DNA from: Thermoproteus sp. UBA157
Lineage (GTDB): Archaea; Thermoproteota; Thermoprotei; Thermoproteales; Thermoproteaceae
DNA length: 64,000 bases
Assembly (NCBI GenBank): GCA_002497345.1
Contig: DANS01000018.1
Span: 92,247-156,246, forward strand
Reading direction: 5' to 3'
This document shows positions 41,184 to 49,852 of the stretch, one piece after another (the first letter of the stretch is position 1; every line of letters begins with the position of its first letter). Made by a program: the position numbers and the translations under genes. The notes under the pieces were generated by a model, which saw only the letters and a program-made list of their open reading frames with translations, had not been told where the DNA came from and did not search any database.

Positions 41184-41525
41184 CTAAAGCGGCGCGAGCT
41201 CCCTGTCGTGGAACAACAACACCGCAAGCCCTCTTCTCCTCGCCTCGGCGATTACCTCCGAATCGCCGGTTAGCACCGCGCATTTATAACGTTCTGCGAC
41301 CTCCAAGACGGACCTATCTGCTGGTTTCGTCCCGCCGGCGACAAACGGCGCCAAGACGCGTACCAGCTTAAGGGCGACTCTCGCCTTTCTCTTCCGGCTC
41401 GACAGCGTTTGTAGCTCGTCGAGCACCGGATACGTCACGAAGATCGTATGCTCGGCGAGGACGGAGGGGTCCAATAACCTCTCCACGAGATATATGAGGG
41501 ACGATGTATCGACGACGATCCTCAA
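41184..41525 (-). CDS. PIN domain protein (Fcf1/Utp24-like)
   Basis: VVDTS, VLDEL, AD and LTGD motifs; conserved position upstream of rpoE'. Confidence 0.85.
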   Translation of the reverse strand: MRIVVDTSSLIYLVERLLDPSVLAEHTIFVTYPVLDELQTLSSRKRKARVALKLVRVLAPFVAGGTKPADRSVLEVAERYKCAVLTGDSEVIAEARRRGLAVLLFHDRELAPL

Positions 41526-42568
41526 AGCTCCACGACGGTTAGGCCCAGCCTTTCTGACGCTTTTTTAAACGCCTCGGACTTGCTCGCCATTATGAGCTGC
41601 AACCTCTTCAACTTGGCCACATCTAGGTATATCGACAATAGCTCCTCGGCGTAATCCTCAGGCACGGCGAGATCTACGTCGTCTATCGCCACAACGCTGT
41701 TCTCGTTGGAGAGAACAAGTTGCACTAAAATGGGCAGCACCGCCTTCGTGAAATTGCCCACGTTGTAGGCGTTGGTCCAAACGCCTCCTGACTTCACATA
41801 CATGGCGATTCTCCCCGTGGAGACGAGGCCCACCCTCACGTCCTCTATGCGGGCCGCTTTGAGGAGCTTGTACAAGTATTCGCGAAGAGGCTCAAACTGA
41901 GGTTGGGATAATATGCGCGATATTTGATGAGCCGTATATTGCCCCTCGGGCCCCACGCTTGTCGCTGGTAACAGATCTACGTGCGTCTCGTAGGTGTACT
42001 TCCATGCGGCGAGCCTCCTCCCGCTGACGAAGTAGAAGGAGTCCTTCAACCCTATTCTCAGCTCCATCAAGATTCTTTCGGCCCTTTTGAACCTCTCGTC
42101 GTCTACAGGAGAGCAAGCTATCAATACGTCCTCGTTCAACACGGCGTATGGCGCCGTGCATAGCTCGACTTTTATATCTGGGTATACGACAACGCCTCTT
42201 TGTCCGCTCTTAGCTATCTTCAACAAAGGCTCGAAATCCTCGTATATTATCTGCTCGACGTATCCGCCCTTGGTGGCGTAGGTGTAGCTGTACCCGTACA
42301 CTCTATCCTCCAACAACCAATGGGTCTCTACCGTGAAGGGGATCGAGGTATCGCCGCCTCGATGCACGTCCTCGGCCTCGTGCACTATCAAGAGAGGGCC
42401 CTCGAACAAGATCCACTGCTCGCCCCTGCTCTGCATCAACATAGAAAGCGCCTCTAGATAGGAGGTTTTCCCAGAGTTGGGAGGACCGTGCACTAAGGCG
42501 GATCCCCTTAAGTCGATACAGCCGTCGAGCGATCTGAACTTGCGAGCGCAGAGCCTCCTCAGCTCCAT
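41522..42568 (-). CDS. ABC/RecF-type (AAA_15/21-like) ATPase, degenerate C-terminal motifs
   Basis: KFRS and Walker A GPPNSGKT; Walker B reads AIDDVD and the H-loop reads ASKS. Confidence 0.75.
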   Translation of the reverse strand: MELRRLCARKFRSLDGCIDLRGSALVHGPPNSGKTSYLEALSMLMQSRGEQWILFEGPLLIVHEAEDVHRGGDTSIPFTVETHWLLEDRVYGYSYTYATKGGYVEQIIYEDFEPLLKIAKSGQRGVVVYPDIKVELCTAPYAVLNEDVLIACSPVDDERFKRAERILMELRIGLKDSFYFVSGRRLAAWKYTYETHVDLLPATSVGPEGQYTAHQISRILSQPQFEPLREYLYKLLKAARIEDVRVGLVSTGRIAMYVKSGGVWTNAYNVGNFTKAVLPILVQLVLSNENSVVAIDDVDLAVPEDYAEELLSIYLDVAKLKRLQLIMASKSEAFKKASERLGLTVVEL

Positions 42569-43346: not shown

Positions 43347-44039
43347 GTGATCACGTTGCCGACGCCAATAGTCTTGGCCATAGGCCGTAGGGAGGGGAAA
43401 CTATCGGCGTACGACATAGAGGGCGGCAGATATTACGATTTGCCGGTAGATCTGAGCGGAATCGGCGTAGCCGAGTTGAAGGCGAGCAACGATGAGGTAA
43501 GATCCCACGTGGTCGTGGCCTCCTATTCTACATCTCTCGTAAAGGCGATAGCGGTAGACGGCAATGCCGAGTTGTTGGACTCAAACGGCATAAGGGAGTT
43601 GAGCAGAGGTAAGGTCACGCTTCGGGCAGTGATGAACAAGGAGTTCGGGCGTTGGGACGACGTTTGGAACAAGCCGATTTTAATCAGAGGAGGCACGGGC
43701 GCGTTGGCCTTAGGGATCTCCAGAGCGGGGAGCTTGCTCCACTTAAACGCGGCGCGTACCGACGAGAGCCATATAAGAGCTGTCGTGGACGCGCTTAACG
43801 CATTGAGGAATTTCGGGGAAGTGTCCTCGACGTGTTCGTGTAGATTGGGCTTGTTTCCGGTCGAGGTCGTTGCAAGGCGTAGCACGGAATACATATTGGC
43901 AAAGATATATATGAATATACAAATTAAAAGAAGCAGTACAGTTATAGTAATTAGAGGATCTGGTGGGAATATACTGAAAAGATATATAGGACCGCTTGAG
44001 AGGCTCAACTTTTATATTGACGAAGCTCAGCGCGAATGA
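43347..44039 (+). CDS. Hypothetical protein, 230 aa
   Basis: GTG start after TTTTAAG; ATGA overlap with the downstream nucleotidyltransferase. Confidence 0.7.
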   Translation: MITLPTPIVLAIGRREGKLSAYDIEGGRYYDLPVDLSGIGVAELKASNDEVRSHVVVASYSTSLVKAIAVDGNAELLDSNGIRELSRGKVTLRAVMNKEFGRWDDVWNKPILIRGGTGALALGISRAGSLLHLNAARTDESHIRAVVDALNALRNFGEVSSTCSCRLGLFPVEVVARRSTEYILAKIYMNIQIKRSSTVIVIRGSGGNILKRYIGPLERLNFYIDEAQRE

Positions 44040-45131: not shown

Positions 45132-45560
45132 TCACCTATCCGCCAGCCTGGTCTCATCATCGAGCTTGCTCAAAATGGCGCGTAGGGTCTTCTCGACGTC
45201 GACTCTGGTCCTTATCTTCTTCCTAAAGGCGTCGCCAGCATCGACAATTATTTTATTTCCTTCTATGTATATCCTTGCAGTAGTCGTCGGCGATATGTAA
45301 GGCCTATAGACTATACGTCGCTCCTCCAGCTGGATCTGGCCTGTGAAGGAGTAGTACCTGGACTTGGTCGCCCTGCCTATTAACGACATGAGTCTGGCCA
45401 AGATCCTCCCCGCTCTTACTACGTCTTCGTTGATAACCCGCTCCTCCAGCCCCTTTCCTACCAAGGCCGAGTAGGAGCTCTTCGTCTCGTGGTGGTATTG
45501 CAACAGAAAAGCAGCGCTCTTGCCTATAATCGATATGGATTTGACGAAGGGGCTCACCAC
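45132..45560 (-). CDS. Hypothetical basic protein, ~142 aa
   Basis: Start trimmed to GTG at 45560, since the longer ORF overlaps the zinc-finger gene. Confidence 0.65.
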   Translation of the reverse strand: MVSPFVKSISIIGKSAAFLLQYHHETKSSYSALVGKGLEERVINEDVVRAGRILARLMSLIGRATKSRYYSFTGQIQLEERRIVYRPYISPTTTARIYIEGNKIIVDAGDAFRKKIRTRVDVEKTLRAILSKLDDETRLADR

Positions 45561-45579
45561 TATGGAGAGAAGGGGCCCC

Positions 45580-45774
45580 CTATAGCCTCTCGAGCGGGTC
45601 GACGCCATCAGGGCATTTGTACTGTAGCTTCCTTGCGCAGACGTCGCAGAACAAATGCCCGGTCTTTTTGCAGAGGTATCTGTCCTCATAAAGATAAAGC
45701 CTTCTGCCGCATCTGCTACAGCGCCCTATCATCAAGGTCTTGACTGGGTACACCACGAACGGCCCCTCCGGCAA
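45580..45774 (-). CDS. Small RING-like zinc finger protein
   Basis: CSRC-x12-C-x4-H-x2-C-x2-C-x7-CP; fits the gap between co-directional neighbours. Confidence 0.7.
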   Translation of the reverse strand: MPEGPFVVYPVKTLMIGRCSRCGRRLYLYEDRYLCKKTGHLFCDVCARKLQYKCPDGVDPLERL

Positions 45775-45780
45775 CCCTAT

Positions 45781-46173
45781 TTAAACATTGACCAGCCTGT
45801 ATCCCTCCTTGAATATTCTGAGACGTACGCCATCGCCTCCGACTTCTAGTCTGGCCTTGCCGGTGCCGAGTAGATAGGCTAGGAGTTTGTTGTGGTCGAC
45901 GCCGGCCTCCTTGCACCTTCCTATAAACTTAGCTATTTCCTCCCCATCCTCTAGCTCTATCTCCGAAATAACGGCGGTGTCGAGCCTCAGAATGCCTTTA
46001 ACCAAAGCCTCTAGCTCCTCGTATATCGCCGTCAGCCTCCCCAAGATGTTCACAACCACTCCCAGCTGCTCCATGATGCGCATCGCGGCATCTTTCAATT
46101 CCTCATCGTCGTAGCGGCTCGAGACTCTGTCCAGGTCCCTTACAGCTTTCGCTAAGTCCCTGACGACGTCCAT
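45781..46173 (-). CDS. Hypothetical protein (helical N-terminus, possible C-terminal winged helix)
   Basis: ATG ORF overlapping the peptidase stop; amphipathic helices followed by LAYLLGTGKARLE. Confidence 0.7.
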   Translation of the reverse strand: MDVVRDLAKAVRDLDRVSSRYDDEELKDAAMRIMEQLGVVVNILGRLTAIYEELEALVKGILRLDTAVISEIELEDGEEIAKFIGRCKEAGVDHNKLLAYLLGTGKARLEVGGDGVRLRIFKEGYRLVNV

Positions 46174-47090
46174 ATCCTCAACACCCTGTCCAACGTATTA
46201 GGGTGGGTTTTAACTAAGAACTTGAGTCTAGAATAGGCCGGGTATAATACCTCTTCGACGACTTCGTTCCAGCCGACTTTCAATAGGCCCGTGGCCAACG
46301 ATTTCGATTTCGCGTATTTGTCGGCTTCATATTCATATAGCCTGATAAGCGATGTGTACATCAACGATGCTCCCATTAGATGTACTCCGAGTAAATATAA
46401 TGATATATTAGAATATATATAATGAATTAAATAAGATCTCAATATAAATTCACTTGTCAGAAAGATCAAAATTTTATACATATGATGAAACTTCAGATGC
46501 CCTTCTTCGTGTTTGAGGGCCGCCTCGAGCTCCTCCGGAGTTAACTTAGCGAGGAGGCCGGTGGTCACCACGACCAAGTTTCCGAACGGCGATTCGAAGG
46601 ACAGAGCGTTCGCCACGCGATCTTTGACGACGCATAAGCCCCTTGCGGGGACGTGGTATAGCTCGTACTCTCCGAGCATGGACGGATCCTCCAAAACCTT
46701 TTTCTTATTTTCTCTTAAAAATTCTATATCATTATATTTTGTTTTTATTATAGTTATAAAATCGATTTTTATACATTTTCTTTTAATAAAAAAATATATT
46801 AGAATATAACTCCCGACTATAGCTGACAAACCTGCCGCTATCTGTAATATCAACGTATGCGCGAGGAGGGCCGCGGGCACGCTCAGAACGAAGGGGAGGA
46901 GCATTAACGCGTTGCTTATTCTGATCTCGGGCGGCTCCACCAGTTTGCCGGAGCTCCATGCGCCTATTATCGCCACGTTATAGTCGCTATTAGCGATGAG
47001 CTCTCTAAGCCGCAATAAGTAGGAAGCTCTATCCTTCAAGCTCTTCAGCCTCCTTGGATCCAAGAGATCGAGGGACGCCCCTACCTCCAC
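46152..47090 (-). CDS. M48/HtpX-like membrane zinc metalloprotease
   Basis: ANALS, VVTTGLL.KL..EELEAAL.HEEGH, EYEAD and THPNTLDRV motifs; TM segments. Confidence 0.88.
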   Translation of the reverse strand: MEVGASLDLLDPRRLKSLKDRASYLLRLRELIANSDYNVAIIGAWSSGKLVEPPEIRISNALMLLPFVLSVPAALLAHTLILQIAAGLSAIVGSYILIYFFIKRKCIKIDFITIIKTKYNDIEFLRENKKKVLEDPSMLGEYELYHVPARGLCVVKDRVANALSFESPFGNLVVVTTGLLAKLTPEELEAALKHEEGHLKFHHMYKILIFLTSEFILRSYLIHYIYSNISLYLLGVHLMGASLMYTSLIRLYEYEADKYAKSKSLATGLLKVGWNEVVEEVLYPAYSRLKFLVKTHPNTLDRVLRIWTSSGT

Positions 47091-47121
47091 GAAAAGAGGA
47101 CCAATGCGTAATAAATCCGCT

Positions 47122-47484
47122 TTATTGAATCTTCTCCGACTCCAAGATCTCCAAGATCTTATCTGTCTCGTACTTCTCGAGCAGATCCCAGAGCTTGCCG
47201 GAGCGGTAGAGGCCGTAGACTTTGCCTCTGGCGCTTCGTTTTATCACAGCTATGTAACCTCTATGCACCAATTCGTCGAGGAAACCCCGAATAACAACCG
47301 TCTTAGCGCGAAGGTCCTTTCTGCCGTAGATGCTGAGATCTTGCGCTATTTTCGATGGCCTAAATGTTATCAAATTCCCCTTAGCATTTCTCGCTTGATC
47401 TTGCAAAAATTGGATCGTAATTCTTTTAATAAAATATGAATCGAACTTCTCCGAATATTTGTAAATCGTACGAAAGCCTTCCAT
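47122..47484 (-). CDS. Winged-helix DNA-binding protein
   Basis: TFRPSKIAQDL...FLDELVHRGYI.VIKRSARGKVY wHTH pattern; basic. Confidence 0.7.
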   Translation of the reverse strand: MEGFRTIYKYSEKFDSYFIKRITIQFLQDQARNAKGNLITFRPSKIAQDLSIYGRKDLRAKTVVIRGFLDELVHRGYIAVIKRSARGKVYGLYRSGKLWDLLEKYETDKILEILESEKIQ

Positions 47485-47503
47485 ATAGGATAAGACAGGC
47501 CCA

Positions 47504-47722
47504 TTATTTATATATTTCTTTTCTATTCTTCCTACATATATTTTCTATATATATAATCTTTTCTTGTAAAATATATAGAATTTTTTCAATATAAGTTAGC
47601 TTATAATTAAGATATTTTAAATAGATAGAACAAGGCTCTAGTTCATCTATCTCTACGCCAATGAGCTTCAGCGCGGATACTACTTTTTTCAATGTTTCTT
47701 CGAAATCTTTGCTCTGCGCCAT
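47504..47722 (-). CDS. Hypothetical protein, 72 aa, with AT-rich coiled-coil-like C-terminal half
   Basis: ATG 1 nt after the ATPase stop; the frame stays open through very AT-rich DNA. Confidence 0.55.
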   Translation of the reverse strand: MAQSKDFEETLKKVVSALKLIGVEIDELEPCSIYLKYLNYKLTYIEKILYILQEKIIYIENICRKNRKEIYK

Positions 47723-47723
47723 A

Positions 47724-48623
47724 TTATAGAAACTTATATATTTTTATAATTTTATCATTAATAATAATTGATTTATATTTTACTTCTAAATTGAATGATA
47801 TATGAGGTTTAACTATAATAATATTAGTATGTGAGAGGATGTCGTTGGGCGGCAGAACGTTCGTGACGAGCACGCATCGTATTCCGTATTTTGCCATTTC
47901 GGTAATTATATGTTTTATTACACTTAGATTCAATAAATTTTGTGCTTCATCTATTATCATTAGAAGTTTTATATCTTTTGTAATTTCTTTTTTTCTAAAT
48001 AAATTATATATATATGTTAAAATCATAGATGAAACAAGTATTTTCTCTTCTACTAATGAAAGATTCGATAAATCTATCGTCAAATCCCTTTTGGACCCGA
48101 TCAGTACCTCCAGAGGTATATCGCCCTCGCTTAGGGCATCGGCTATGTATTCAAGCCTGCGCAATATCGCCGCCTTCATTTCGGTCTCGCTTCTGGTCGT
48201 CGTCAAGTACGCGTCGATGCCTCTTATTAAATCCTCTAGGCGCTCTATTTTTTGATCTTTGAGCGATCTATACATAAAATAAATAGATGGTTCATTTAAA
48301 TTAAGAGATAAACCTATTAATTCTACCAAAATTTTTTTATTTATATTTGAAATATCAACCTTTATCCTAGAAGCCGGCACCTTGAGGCCTATCTCGTACT
48401 CGCCGTTCCAATCCAGGACCAGCACCTTCTTCCTGCTTCTCTTGGCTATTTTTCGCGCCAATGTGGTTTTGCCGGATCTCGTGGGGCCCAATATAGTTAT
48501 ATGTTTGTCCAGAGGTACGCCGGACAGCCCGTTGGAGCCTATGCCCACGAACACCTCGTCGTCCTTGTATACATACGCGAAAACTGTGAGCGAGAGGAGC
48601 GCCAGCAATATTAAGTCGATCAT
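47724..48623 (-). CDS. Short HerA/VirB4/FtsK-like ATPase with N-terminal membrane anchor
   Basis: MIDLILLALLSLTVFAYVY TM helix; HITILGPTRSGKTT, LDWNGEY, IIDEAQ and EMAKYGI motifs. ATG at 48623 overlaps the helicase stop. Confidence 0.85.
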   Translation of the reverse strand: MIDLILLALLSLTVFAYVYKDDEVFVGIGSNGLSGVPLDKHITILGPTRSGKTTLARKIAKRSRKKVLVLDWNGEYEIGLKVPASRIKVDISNINKKILVELIGLSLNLNEPSIYFMYRSLKDQKIERLEDLIRGIDAYLTTTRSETEMKAAILRRLEYIADALSEGDIPLEVLIGSKRDLTIDLSNLSLVEEKILVSSMILTYIYNLFRKKEITKDIKLLMIIDEAQNLLNLSVIKHIITEMAKYGIRCVLVTNVLPPNDILSHTNIIIVKPHISFNLEVKYKSIIINDKIIKIYKFL

Positions 48624-49852
48624 CTCCGAGGCGTTTCCCTCAACACGGCCAACTTGTTGAACCACATAGGCATAGCCCACTTGTATTTCCAGAATCTATC
48701 GTCGATAGCGGCTATGTATTTCTCCCTCTTGTCCAAATCGCGCATAGCTCTGCCCATGGCCTGCACGGCGTTGCTCACCGCCGCGAATAGAAAGACGTAT
48801 TTAAAGCCGTTGAAGCCGAACTGTTGCAGCAATCGGGCCTTGGCCGCCAACCACCTATCCTTGATGTCGGGCAGAGGGAATCCGACCAACACGGCGGCAT
48901 CTACGTCTAAGTTAAGTCCCTCAGCCAAGGCGCTACCGAAATAGGTCAACGCGACGTGAGGGATATCTCCCAACGGCTTGTCGGATATCGGTATGTCTTT
49001 TAGTTTTAATTTATAGTATTCATATATCTCTTTATTTGGAAAGAAAACAATAATTTTATTATAATTATGAAAAATATTCATAATTATATCTTTTATATGT
49101 TCATATATATACTTTTTCTTCCTATTGACATAGCGTATTTTGATAGGATATATATCTATTATTAAATTATCAAAAAATGTATTATCTTTATTTACATATT
49201 TTAAGCTTAAAAAATTAGTGAATATATCGGAGAACGGCTTGGTTATCGAGGCACTGGCCATCAGCACGTCCTTATCGCTCAACAGTTTGCCCACTATAGG
49301 CATTAACAGACAGCGCCGCGTTTCCTTATCGCATATGGAGCCGGACGGAGGCTCGTCTTCGACTTGCAGATCGTGTAGCAGCAAGTTATGTGCCTCGTCT
49401 ATGATGACGAGCTCAGAATCGTGAATTACATCCAATATCGACGACAAGTACTCCTGGCTTTCTAGATAGGACAGAGGGAGCACGGCGACTCGGCTCTGCC
49501 GGCCTACGGCTTGTAGGTATTCATAGGGGCAGACGCCGGCCTCATATATGTCTTCGATTTTGACGAACTTCTTGTCCAAATACTTATACCTAGCCTTACA
49601 CACGCCTCTCTCGCGCAACTCCATGCACTCGGCCGAGGTCCTCGCGCCGAATTTACACAGAGCAGATCTGCCGAACATCAAAGCGGCGGTGCCGCCGTAT
49701 GAGACGACGTAAGTGTAGACCTGAAAGGCCTCCATGTGCGAGCGCACGAAGAACGAGACCCTCCCCCCCAGCTCCACCGCGATTTTGGCGAGCCTCTTGC
49801 TTTTGCCGTAGCCGGGCGGCGCTTGGAGCAGTACTCTCACACGGTATTGCAC
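48620..49852 (-). CDS. XPD/Rad3/DinG-family helicase, compact variant
   Basis: APPGYGKS; four Fe-S-type Cys (LC...EC...VC...VCPY); IIDEAHNL; SAS; AEGLN; VGFPLP; QAMGRAMR; IDDRF. Confidence 0.85.
   Translation of the reverse strand: MQYRVRVLLQAPPGYGKSKRLAKIAVELGGRVSFFVRSHMEAFQVYTYVVSYGGTAALMFGRSALCKFGARTSAECMELRERGVCKARYKYLDKKFVKIEDIYEAGVCPYEYLQAVGRQSRVAVLPLSYLESQEYLSSILDVIHDSELVIIDEAHNLLLHDLQVEDEPPSGSICDKETRRCLLMPIVGKLLSDKDVLMASASITKPFSDIFTNFLSLKYVNKDNTFFDNLIIDIYPIKIRYVNRKKKYIYEHIKDIIMNIFHNYNKIIVFFPNKEIYEYYKLKLKDIPISDKPLGDIPHVALTYFGSALAEGLNLDVDAAVLVGFPLPDIKDRWLAAKARLLQQFGFNGFKYVFLFAAVSNAVQAMGRAMRDLDKREKYIAAIDDRFWKYKWAMPMWFNKLAVLRETPRR

What the first reader, a model, noticed from the sequence alone, without database searches (positions are those of the whole stretch)
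45132..49852. Uncharacterised 8-gene helicase / membrane ATPase / protease / RING-like module attached to the rps19e-rpl31e operon
Seen: a tight minus-strand run (overlaps or gaps of at most 31 nt) encoding an XPD-like Fe-S helicase, a TM-anchored HerA/VirB4-like ATPase (ATGA-coupled), a 72-aa protein, a wHTH protein, an M48 membrane protease, a 130-aa unknown, a RING-like zinc finger and a 142-aa basic unknown. It follows rpl31e and a 116-aa unknown. Established: in many archaea rpl39e-rpl31e is followed by aIF6/rplX/prefoldin/ftsY, which are absent here; membrane-anchored HerA/VirB4 ATPases act in crenarchaeal DNA import (Ced/Ted systems); Thermoproteales lack FtsZ and Cdv division systems. 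Inference: a membrane-associated DNA-handling machine (import, segregation or damage response) under proteolytic control. I cannot assign it to a named system.
Basis: partly seen in the sequence, partly recalled or inferred. Interest (0 to 1): 0.75.

Follow-up and report, generated by a model that had tools for sequence, protein, structure and literature searches.

The report
Remnant of an archaeal DNA-uptake operon
The eight genes are real but are not one machine: the part that is kept and lost together is a shrunken DNA helicase plus a membrane-anchored DNA-pump-like ATPase, which in a distant relative sit in one operon with a pilus motor and pilin, so they are likely the scattered inner half of an overlooked DNA-uptake system in hot-spring archaea.

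Summary
All eight ORFs and their tight spacing are as reported, but they are three units. (1) A second XPD helicase (no Arch domain, no Q motif) and a CedD-related membrane ATPase: both found in 47 of 62 Thermoproteales genomes, neither in 15, adjacent in 41 of 47; u72 is probably the ATPase's split-off tail. (2) A more persistent u116/wHTH/M48/u130 backbone that stays when the pair is deleted. (3) The zinc finger and 142-aa gene, a separate pair, inverted or elsewhere outside this genus; the rpl31e link is also genus-specific. The ATPase is not TedB, TedD, CedB or HerA and does not track Ted. In one distant genome, RpoG, TFIIB, a type IV pilus motor, a pilin, this ATPase and XPD form one co-oriented run; this genome holds the motor half elsewhere, probably the pilin-less 'subclade 4D' system. 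Best reading (0.5): a dispersed pilus-linked DNA-import machine, the helicase acting like ComFA. Against: worn catalytic motifs, no channel identified, no experiment. This scan reached similar readings before on other genomes (e1-3124970, e1-9918298, e1-724322).

The parts
48620..49852 (-). XPD2: 410-aa second XPD/Rad3 paralogue; four invariant Fe-S cysteines (C66, C76, C85, C108), Walker A, DEAH and motif VI intact; Arch domain and Q motif absent. Core of the finding.
   Evidence: canonical 585-aa XPD lies elsewhere in this genome
47724..48623 (-). 299-aa FtsK/HerA-family ATPase, one N-terminal hydrophobic anchor, CedD-related lineage; Walker A/B intact, ExRKxG motif changed to EMAKYG and the strand-5 Q to N. 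Core of the finding.
47504..47722 (-). u72: coiled-coil protein, probably the split-off C-terminal tail of the ATPase (longer orthologues carry such a tail and have no u72 hit beside them)
   Evidence: hhalign prob. 70, E 4e-5, 26 columns only
47122..47484 (-). 120-aa basic, putative winged-helix DNA-binding protein; 61 of 62 genomes of the order, including those without the helicase/ATPase pair
47505..47521 (-). BRE/TATA-like site overlapping the u72 stop codon, about 25 nt before the wHTH ATG; likely internal promoter
   Evidence: sequence; a TATA-like word at this place in 21 of 21 upstream regions of the two genera, judged by eye
46152..47090 (-). M48/HtpX-like membrane zinc protease (HEEGH 194-198, E253, H296 invariant); stays beside wHTH when the pair is lost
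45781..46173 (-). u130: unknown; a weakly similar gene follows M48 in other families
   Evidence: hhalign prob. 30, E 5.5e-4; a smaller comparison found nothing
45580..45774 (-). Six-cysteine zinc-binding protein; separate two-gene unit with u142, not part of the core
45132..45560 (-). u142: basic unknown protein; travels with the zinc finger, not with the core
46363..49247 (.). Eight AT-rich patches (97-272 nt, 21-31% GC with flanks; 200-nt minimum 15% against a genome mean of 59%) inside XPD2, ATPase, u72, wHTH and M48, affecting all three codon positions

Best explanation
The conserved functional unit is the XPD2 helicase plus the membrane-anchored CedD-related ATPase (with u72 as its likely split-off tail), and it is likely the cytoplasmic half of a dispersed, type IV pilus-linked DNA-import machine. 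Shown: the two genes are present or missing together and are usually neighbours; their homologues are neighbours in several other classes; in distant genomes the ATPase follows a pilin at the end of a pilus-motor operon, once followed by XPD; the same pilin family occurs in lineages with the pair. Inferred mechanism: a pilus (motor at G000 C38:23563-24591, pilin elsewhere) would bring DNA to the membrane, the anchored ATPase would couple it to a still unidentified channel, and the Arch-less XPD2 would pull or hold the incoming single strand 5'-3' without unwinding, as ComFA does in bacterial competence, for repair by recombination. The flanking u116, wHTH, M48 and u130 are an older-looking neighbour block; ZnF/u142 and the ribosomal genes are genus-level neighbours.
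For: Co-presence: both in 47, neither in 15 of 62 genomes; adjacent in 41 of the 47, apart in 5, undecidable in 1. Clean joint deletion leaving u116 next to wHTH in G009, G027, G028. Of 80 loci from named genomes, 30 of 38 close homologues have an XPD within 350 nt, against 1 of 42 more distant CedD-type ones, and that one is a truncated member of the focal clade; order is reversed outside Thermoproteales. ATPase tree: focal clade (100/100) inside a 44-row clade (95/95) with these XPD-adjacent ATPases, inside a weaker CedD-containing group (80/87); CedD is needed for DNA import (PMC11823120; bioRxiv 2024.09.27.615246). The adjacent XPDs all fall outside the canonical XPD clade (17 rows, SH-aLRT 99). 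G320 (L209): RpoG-TFIIB-113 aa-T2SSE motor-T2SSF-membrane-pilin-ATPase-XPD, co-oriented; motor-two membrane genes-pilin-ATPase also in L136, motor and pilin before it in L318, pilin directly before it in L343. Pilin homologue (hhalign 95, E 2e-8) 2-4 kb beyond the cluster in 14 of the 19 loci L101-L119; found in 3 of 3 tested genomes with the pair, 0 of 2 without. This genome has RpoG-TFIIB-like-T2SSE ATPase-membrane gene at C38:23013-25461, matching the pilin-less subclade 4D operon of unknown function (PMC4858521 section 14). Arch deletion in CasDinG removes unwinding but keeps ATPase activity (PMC10450177 section 31); ComFA translocates 5'-3' without unwinding (bioRxiv 2021.10.29.466550 abstract).
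Against: Both enzymes look worn in this order: Q motif missing in 12 of 12 XPD2, DEAH-to-motif-III spacing 42-45 aa here against 133-171 in canonical XPD; the ExRKxG arginine is A or G in 20 of 20 rows (its role as arginine finger is recalled, and the invariant K245 might stand in). Arch deletion also weakened ssDNA binding in CasDinG. The 4D motor lacks its C-terminal domain in these genera and its describers favour a non-pilus role. No CedA/ComEC-like channel was identified or searched for. The pilin was not found in this 73.5% complete genome. The ATPase is separated from XPD2 in 5 genomes, and Thermofilum-type homologues have no XPD beside them. Most XPD-adjacent homologues examined have no pilus operon within 5 kb. 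BLAST does not separate the C38 motor (104 bits) from another pilus ATPase (117 bits) as orthologue of the G320 motor; the link rests on gene context. The pilin test covers 5 genomes. Kin are not independent: about four losses, not 15.
Confidence: 0.5

Rival explanations
1. The pair is a repurposed remnant: it descends from the pilus-linked operon but no longer imports DNA, and works as a membrane-tethered DNA-binding or repair/transcription-coupled factor (with the lineage-specific TFIIB and RpoG of the 4D operon).
For: Parallel loss of Arch, Q motif and the arginine motif; truncated 4D motor with TFIIB and RpoG neighbours, read as transcription-related in PMC4858521; strong conservation despite this (32 and 38 invariant columns over 38 rows); retained in closed genomes without Ted hits.
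Against: The pilin is kept with the pair in the 5 genomes tested and lies near the cluster in one family; Walker motifs and Fe-S cysteines are invariant.
Confidence: 0.25
2. u116-XPD2-ATPase-u72-wHTH-M48-u130 is one regulated system: the M48 protease controls the wHTH regulator (as BlaR1 does BlaI; analogy recalled), which controls the helicase/ATPase pair.
For: Order u116-XPD2-ATPase-wHTH-M48 kept in 17 of the 19 loci L101-L119 as far as they reach, across three genera, and in the two nearer genera; an inverted repeat lies before the wHTH promoter in three genera.
Against: wHTH and u116 occur in 61 of 62 genomes, also where the pair is missing; none of the non-Thermoproteales ATPase-XPD loci shows these neighbours; wHTH has its own TATA-like site; the inverted repeat gave no regulon; no BlaI-family hit.
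Confidence: 0.13
3. The ATPase is a detached subunit of the Ted (T4SS-like) DNA-exchange system.
Against: TedB and TedC queries find nothing in closed genomes G001, G002, G005, G006, G008, G025, G026 that carry both genes, and do find hits in G009, which has cleanly lost the pair; published TedB/TedD are other genes in the Ted locus; TedB and the 300-aa Ted-locus ATPase branch far away. Single-protein queries miss distant Ted homologues, so this holds for the two nearer genera only.
Confidence: 0.07
4. No functional link: the genes are neighbours only because gene order is slow to change in core-gene regions.
For: In this genus the whole flanking 14-16 kb (PCNA to Spt4) is co-linear too. This explains ZnF/u142 and the ribosomal link.
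Against: Cannot explain joint loss, or adjacency with reversed order and different flanks in other classes.
Confidence: 0.05

Closest known systems
CedD of the Sulfolobales Ced DNA-import system (NCBIfam NF053655; PMC11823120; bioRxiv 2024.09.27.615246)
   Same: Membrane-anchored FtsK/HerA ATPase; best NCBIfam hit; the focal profile's best matches in the 4 Sulfolobaceae-type genomes fetched are CedD (3 scanned, all above cut-off); same large tree group.
   Different: 67 bits against 600; lacks the ~200-aa N-terminal domain; separate starred clade; arginine motif altered; paired with an XPD, which 0 of the long CedD-type loci are.
XPD/Rad3/DinG Fe-S helicases (e.g. PDB 3crv, 4a15)
   Same: Fold (Foldseek E 5e-17, TM 0.71 to 3crv), four Fe-S cysteines, helicase motifs.
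   Different: Second paralogue beside an intact XPD; no Arch domain, no Q motif, shortened second motor domain; a review of bacterial DinG-like proteins calls the Arch domain universal (PMC11981726 passages).
Archaeal type IV pilus subclade 4D (arCOG05558/05559; PMC4858521)
   Same: This genome's RpoG-TFIIB-like-ATPase-membrane operon fits its description; G320 joins such a run to pilin, ATPase and XPD.
   Different: Described as two components with no pilin and unknown function; the paper's main text has no mention of XPD or helicase. arCOG membership itself was not tested.
ComFA of Firmicutes competence (bioRxiv 2021.10.29.466550)
   Same: SF2 ATPase that moves 5'-3' on ssDNA without unwinding, working with a pilus-type uptake system: the proposed working model.
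   Different: Different SF2 family; analogy only; no ComEC/ComFC partner identified.
Ted system of Thermoproteales (PMC9905601)
   Same: Chromosomal DNA-exchange role proposed; contains HerA/VirB4-like ATPases.
   Different: Different genes, patchy and often multi-copy, not co-distributed with this pair.

Membership tests
XPD/Rad3/DinG helicase | SF2 motor motifs I, II, VI | tested here: met
   P13-K17, D152-H155, Q364-R371 invariant in 38 rows
XPD/Rad3/DinG helicase | Four-cysteine Fe-S domain in motor domain 1 | tested here: met
   C66, C76, C85, C108 invariant; cluster binding itself not measured
XPD/Rad3/DinG helicase | Arch domain between motifs II and III | tested here: not met
   42-aa spacing against 133-171 in canonical XPD; model shows only short strands there
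XPD/Rad3/DinG helicase | Q motif before Walker A | tested here: not met
   absent in 12 of 12 XPD2, present in 43 of the 45 other rows, the two exceptions being rows without a matched Walker A
XPD/Rad3/DinG helicase | 5'-3' unwinding activity | not testable with these tools
   needs purified protein
CedD | Score above NF053655 cut-off | tested here: not met
   67 bits against 600; bona fide CedD 704-763
CedD | N-terminal membrane anchor | tested here: met
   one hydrophobic segment at the N-terminus by a simple hydropathy scan
CedD | VirB4-like N-terminal domain before the ATPase | tested here: not met
   Walker A at residue 46-52 here, at about 215-255 in long CedD-type proteins
CedD | Clusters with Sulfolobales CedD in a tree | tested here: inconclusive
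   separate clade (95/95) within a CedD-containing group of weak support (80/87); vertical orthology is possible
CedD | Required for DNA import; damage-induced | not testable with these tools
   needs genetics and RNA data
Ted system | Is TedB or TedD / lies in the tedC-tedA locus | tested here: not met
Ted system | Co-distributed with TedB and TedC | tested here: not met
   seven closed genomes with the pair and no TedB/TedC hit; G009 the reverse; valid for the two nearer genera
HerA (HerA-NurA end resection) | Orthologue beside mre11/rad50, N-terminal HAS domain | tested here: not met
   a 607-aa HerA-like gene before Mre11- and Rad50-like ORFs (read by motif) is at C31:65287; focal ATPase branches apart
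Type IV pilus-linked DNA uptake | Pilus motor and platform proteins encoded | tested here: inconclusive
   T2SSE ATPase and a membrane gene at C38:23013-24591; orthology to the G320 motor rests on context; the membrane gene shows no TadC similarity
Type IV pilus-linked DNA uptake | Class III pilin | tested here: inconclusive
   found in 3 of 3 closed relatives with the pair, weak Flp1_like hit; not found in this incomplete genome
Type IV pilus-linked DNA uptake | Membrane DNA channel (ComEC/CedA type) | not tested
   no search made
M48/HtpX protease | HExxH plus downstream Glu, membrane segments | tested here: met
   PF01435 55 bits against 20; H194, E195, H198, E253 invariant
RING finger | Eight conserved Zn ligands | tested here: not met
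   six invariant Cys, His40 variable; below Pfam cut-offs

The most novel reading that the evidence does not exclude
Thermoproteales carry a second, competence-like DNA-uptake machine, independent of Ted, built from a type IV pilus (the orphan subclade 4D motor and a stand-alone pilin), a CedD-related coupling ATPase and a naturally Arch-less XPD acting as an archaeal ComFA, under its own TFIIB; the ancestral operon survives whole in G320, and in Thermoproteus its two halves share a signature of intragenic AT-rich patches.
Probability: 0.3. Interest if true: 0.85.

Novelty: new variant of a known kind. Interest (0 to 1): 0.6.

Why it matters
If right, it gives a function to a pilus system described as pilin-less and unexplained, names the closest CedD relative in an order reported to lack CedD (bioRxiv 2024.09.27.615246, passages), and makes archaeal DNA uptake testable with three or four knockouts. 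Even if not, XPD2 is a natural Arch-less, Q-motif-less Fe-S helicase, a ready test of what those parts do.

Tried and rejected
Complex prediction of XPD2 with the ATPase: no answer (score 0.00); not used either way. RNA runs: no RNA holder listed, so co-transcription is untested. u116 fold search: best Z 8.8, rmsd 3.1, 106 aligned, among unrelated helical bundles; no assignment. wHTH: no Pfam or PDB-sequence family; Atlas search with homologue P0027 gave unnamed archaeal clusters. u142: no PDB-sequence hit; the Atlas did not hold it. Replication-origin idea for the AT patches: cdc6 is 1.2 Mb from the cluster in G026 and 44 long A/T runs are spread round that chromosome, 3 of them here; the primary origin paper is not held; set aside, not excluded. 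Inverted-repeat regulon: 0-2 sites per genome, near control (one fixed spacer only). Sigma-70 promoter scan not meaningful for archaea. wHTH as known chromatin protein: not among listed P. calidifontis chromosome proteins by size or name in the passages seen. Iyer 2004 not held, so the arginine-finger assignment is recalled. Literature searches for this pairing; the single hits were seen as listings only; none of the texts read describes the XPD-ATPase pair. Supplements of PMC4858521 and of the bioRxiv papers were not seen and may list these genes. G014 and G057 count among the 15 'neither' genomes but are probably assembly gaps. Trees used LG+G4 without the mixture model, and no AU test was run.
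Full report
Observation. The window is from a Thermoproteus-like archaeon (a homologue of the wHTH at 92% identity is named Thermoproteus sp.; genome G000, 73.5% complete). Pfam and NCBIfam confirm an XPD-type helicase, a HerA/TrwB-type ATPase whose best NCBIfam hit is CedD far below cut-off, and an M48 protease; the other five have no family above cut-off.

The eight genes are not one unit. In 7 of the 8 other genomes of this genus the order is identical, but so is the flanking block from PCNA to the PIN/RpoE/Spt4 genes, so this says nothing specific; G019 breaks after wHTH. rpl31e precedes u116 in 9 of 9 genomes of the genus, in 0 of 15 sister-genus loci and in 0 of 19 loci of other families. 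ZnF and u142 are inverted against the rest in 17 of 18 sister-genus genomes (the other has them on another contig), and in closed genomes G049, G052 and G053 they form their own pair more than 0.8 Mb away. What is conserved across the order is u116-XPD2-ATPase-wHTH-M48-(u130). A TATA-like site overlapping the u72 stop codon sits about 25 nt before the wHTH start in 21 of 21 regions inspected by eye, so the run is probably more than one transcript; no RNA run was listed to test this.

Within that backbone the helicase and ATPase form a removable cassette. Counting strong orthologue hits, both are found in 47 of 62 genomes of the order and neither in 15; no genome has one alone. Two of the 15 (G014, G057) are likely assembly gaps. 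In G009, G027 and G028 u116 sits directly before wHTH, a clean joint deletion; in g6 wHTH and M48 stay together and in g8 wHTH stands alone. u116 and wHTH are each found in 61 of 62 genomes. The pair is adjacent in 41 of 47, apart in G002, G005, G006, G007 and G055, undecidable in G012. These are about four independent losses, not fifteen.

The pairing is older than the order. A profile search of 401 genomes of the phylum and a scan of named genomes found homologues in Culexarchaeia, Methanomethylicia, Nezhaarchaeales and Thermofilaceae. Of 80 loci, 30 of 38 with E below 1e-80 have an XPD within 350 nt (downstream outside Thermoproteales, often overlapping), against 1 of 42 weaker, mostly long CedD-type hits. 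The profile was built from such sequences, so I also used trees. A 74-row tree puts the focal clade (100/100) in a 44-row clade (95/95) with the XPD-adjacent ATPases, Thermofilum-type proteins and a few long pilus-linked ones; Sulfolobales CedD lies outside it within a weakly supported larger group (80/87); CedB, TedB and HerA are further off (quick tree of 88 rows). A 57-row tree puts every ATPase-adjacent XPD outside the canonical XPD clade, and this genome has its canonical 585-aa XPD elsewhere.

Anatomy. XPD2 keeps four Fe-S cysteines and the motor motifs and folds like XPD (pLDDT 87.7; Foldseek TM 0.71 to 3crv). It lacks the Q motif (12 of 12 orthologues), and the Arch region shrinks from 133-171 aa in canonical XPD to 91-123 in other families and 42-45 in this genus and its sister (rows where the motif was matched). 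In CasDinG, Arch deletion stops unwinding, weakens ssDNA binding and keeps ATPase activity (PMC10450177, section 31 read). The ATPase keeps Walker A and B but has A or G where outside homologues have the R of ExRKxG (20 of 20 rows; compare); that this R is the arginine finger is recalled. Longer orthologues end in a coiled coil that resembles u72 (weak), which suggests fission.

Not Ted. Published TedB and TedD are other genes in the tedC locus (PMC11823120 supplement rows; PMC9905601 passages). TedB and TedC from G003 hit 21 and 12 of 62 genomes; seven closed genomes with both focal genes have neither, and G009 has Ted hits without the pair. These single queries miss distant homologues, so the test holds for the two nearer genera.

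The pilus link. In G320 one co-oriented run reads RpoG-like, TFIIB, 113 aa, T2SSE motor, T2SSF, membrane protein, pilin-like, this ATPase, XPD (the RpoG and T2SSF hits are below cut-off). L136 has motor, two membrane genes, pilin and a long homologue; L318 and L343 have the pilin directly before it. A homologous pilin lies a few genes beyond the cluster in 14 of loci L101-L119 and was found in 3 of 3 tested genomes with the pair and 0 of 2 without; it was not found in G000. G000 has an RpoG-like, TFIIB-like, T2SSE ATPase, membrane-gene operon at C38:23013-25461, with close homologues named from Thermoproteus and Pyrobaculum. This fits subclade 4D of PMC4858521 (section 14 read): no pilin, truncated motor, function unknown. 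Orthology of the C38 motor to the G320 motor rests on context, not BLAST.

AT patches. The stretch from M48 to XPD2 is the largest low-GC cluster of the assembly (20 of 132 windows under 33% GC), lowers GC at all three codon positions (0.28/0.20/0.21 against 0.53/0.38/0.69) and recurs in all 8 other genomes of the genus, while the sister genus shows at most a dip over u72. Of 1477 ORFs, 25 have 90 nt or more in such patches; XPD2, the ATPase, u72, M48 and all four genes of the C38 operon are among the top 22. Patches also occur in PolB and other core genes and round the G026 chromosome, so the shared signature is suggestive only.

Verdict. The real finding is a two-gene core that most likely belongs to a dispersed pilus-linked DNA-import system (0.5), working like CedD plus ComFA (bioRxiv 2021.10.29.466550, abstract and outline seen) without being a member of Ced or Ted as defined; a repurposed remnant is the main rival (0.25). 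I found no description of the pair in the texts read (searches). The scan has noted the same system on other genomes. New variant of a known kind; interest 0.6.

Noticed in passing
window 46363-49247; G000 C38:23.3-28.3 kb, C38:34.3-38.7 kb, C4:16.4-17.1 kb: Sharp 90-285 nt AT-rich patches inside conserved coding genes (94 in the assembly, 48 on two contigs), strong enough to shift amino acids towards I/K/N/Y/F; conserved in position across this genus at the focal locus. Cause unexplained.
   Followed up: partly
G000 C38:23013-25461 (L263:13014-15462, minus strand): RpoG-like, 164-aa TFIIB-like, 343-aa T2SSE ATPase and 186-aa membrane gene; fits the orphan subclade 4D pilus operon. The short TFIIB resembles the damage-induced TFB3 in size and layout (recalled, not tested).
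   Followed up: partly
L209:1111-10587 (G320): Co-oriented run RpoG-TFIIB-113 aa-pilus motor-two membrane genes-pilin-ATPase-XPD-kinase-like: candidate intact ancestral operon.
   Followed up: partly
upstream of wHTH in L141-L146 and L107-L119: Inverted repeat of about 28 nt (8-10 nt arms) just before the TATA box in genera g6, g8 and, more loosely, g9; candidate operator. Genome scan gave no regulon.
   Followed up: partly
L141-L143 (g6): wHTH and M48 are divergently arranged with about 130 nt between them, the layout of a regulator and its target.
   Followed up: no
G004, G011, G013, G021: TedB-like genes in 2-5 copies and missing from several closed relatives, a pattern more like integrated elements than a core system.
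   Followed up: no
window 48620-49852, residues C174 and C181: Two further cysteines, invariant in the 14 rows from the two nearer genera, flank the hairpin left where the Arch domain was; possible stabilising disulfide.
   Followed up: no
G045, G046, G047 (g8): Where XPD2 is missing, u116 lies 3-4 kb upstream of an XPD-family gene on the same strand.
   Followed up: no
L199:4643-6440 (G142): The genome's only DEAD_2 hit, right after the ATPase homologue, is split into two ORFs.
   Followed up: no
upstream of u116 in L103, L104, L106, L116, L117: Conserved TGATGA...CTGA boxes typical of a C/D box sRNA (pattern recalled) just before u116 in genus g7.
   Followed up: no
window 41522-42568 and 43347-44039: A conserved 348-aa ATPase-like ORF and a 230-aa ORF without family hits above cut-off (the latter scanned) stay linked to this block in both nearer genera.
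   Followed up: no
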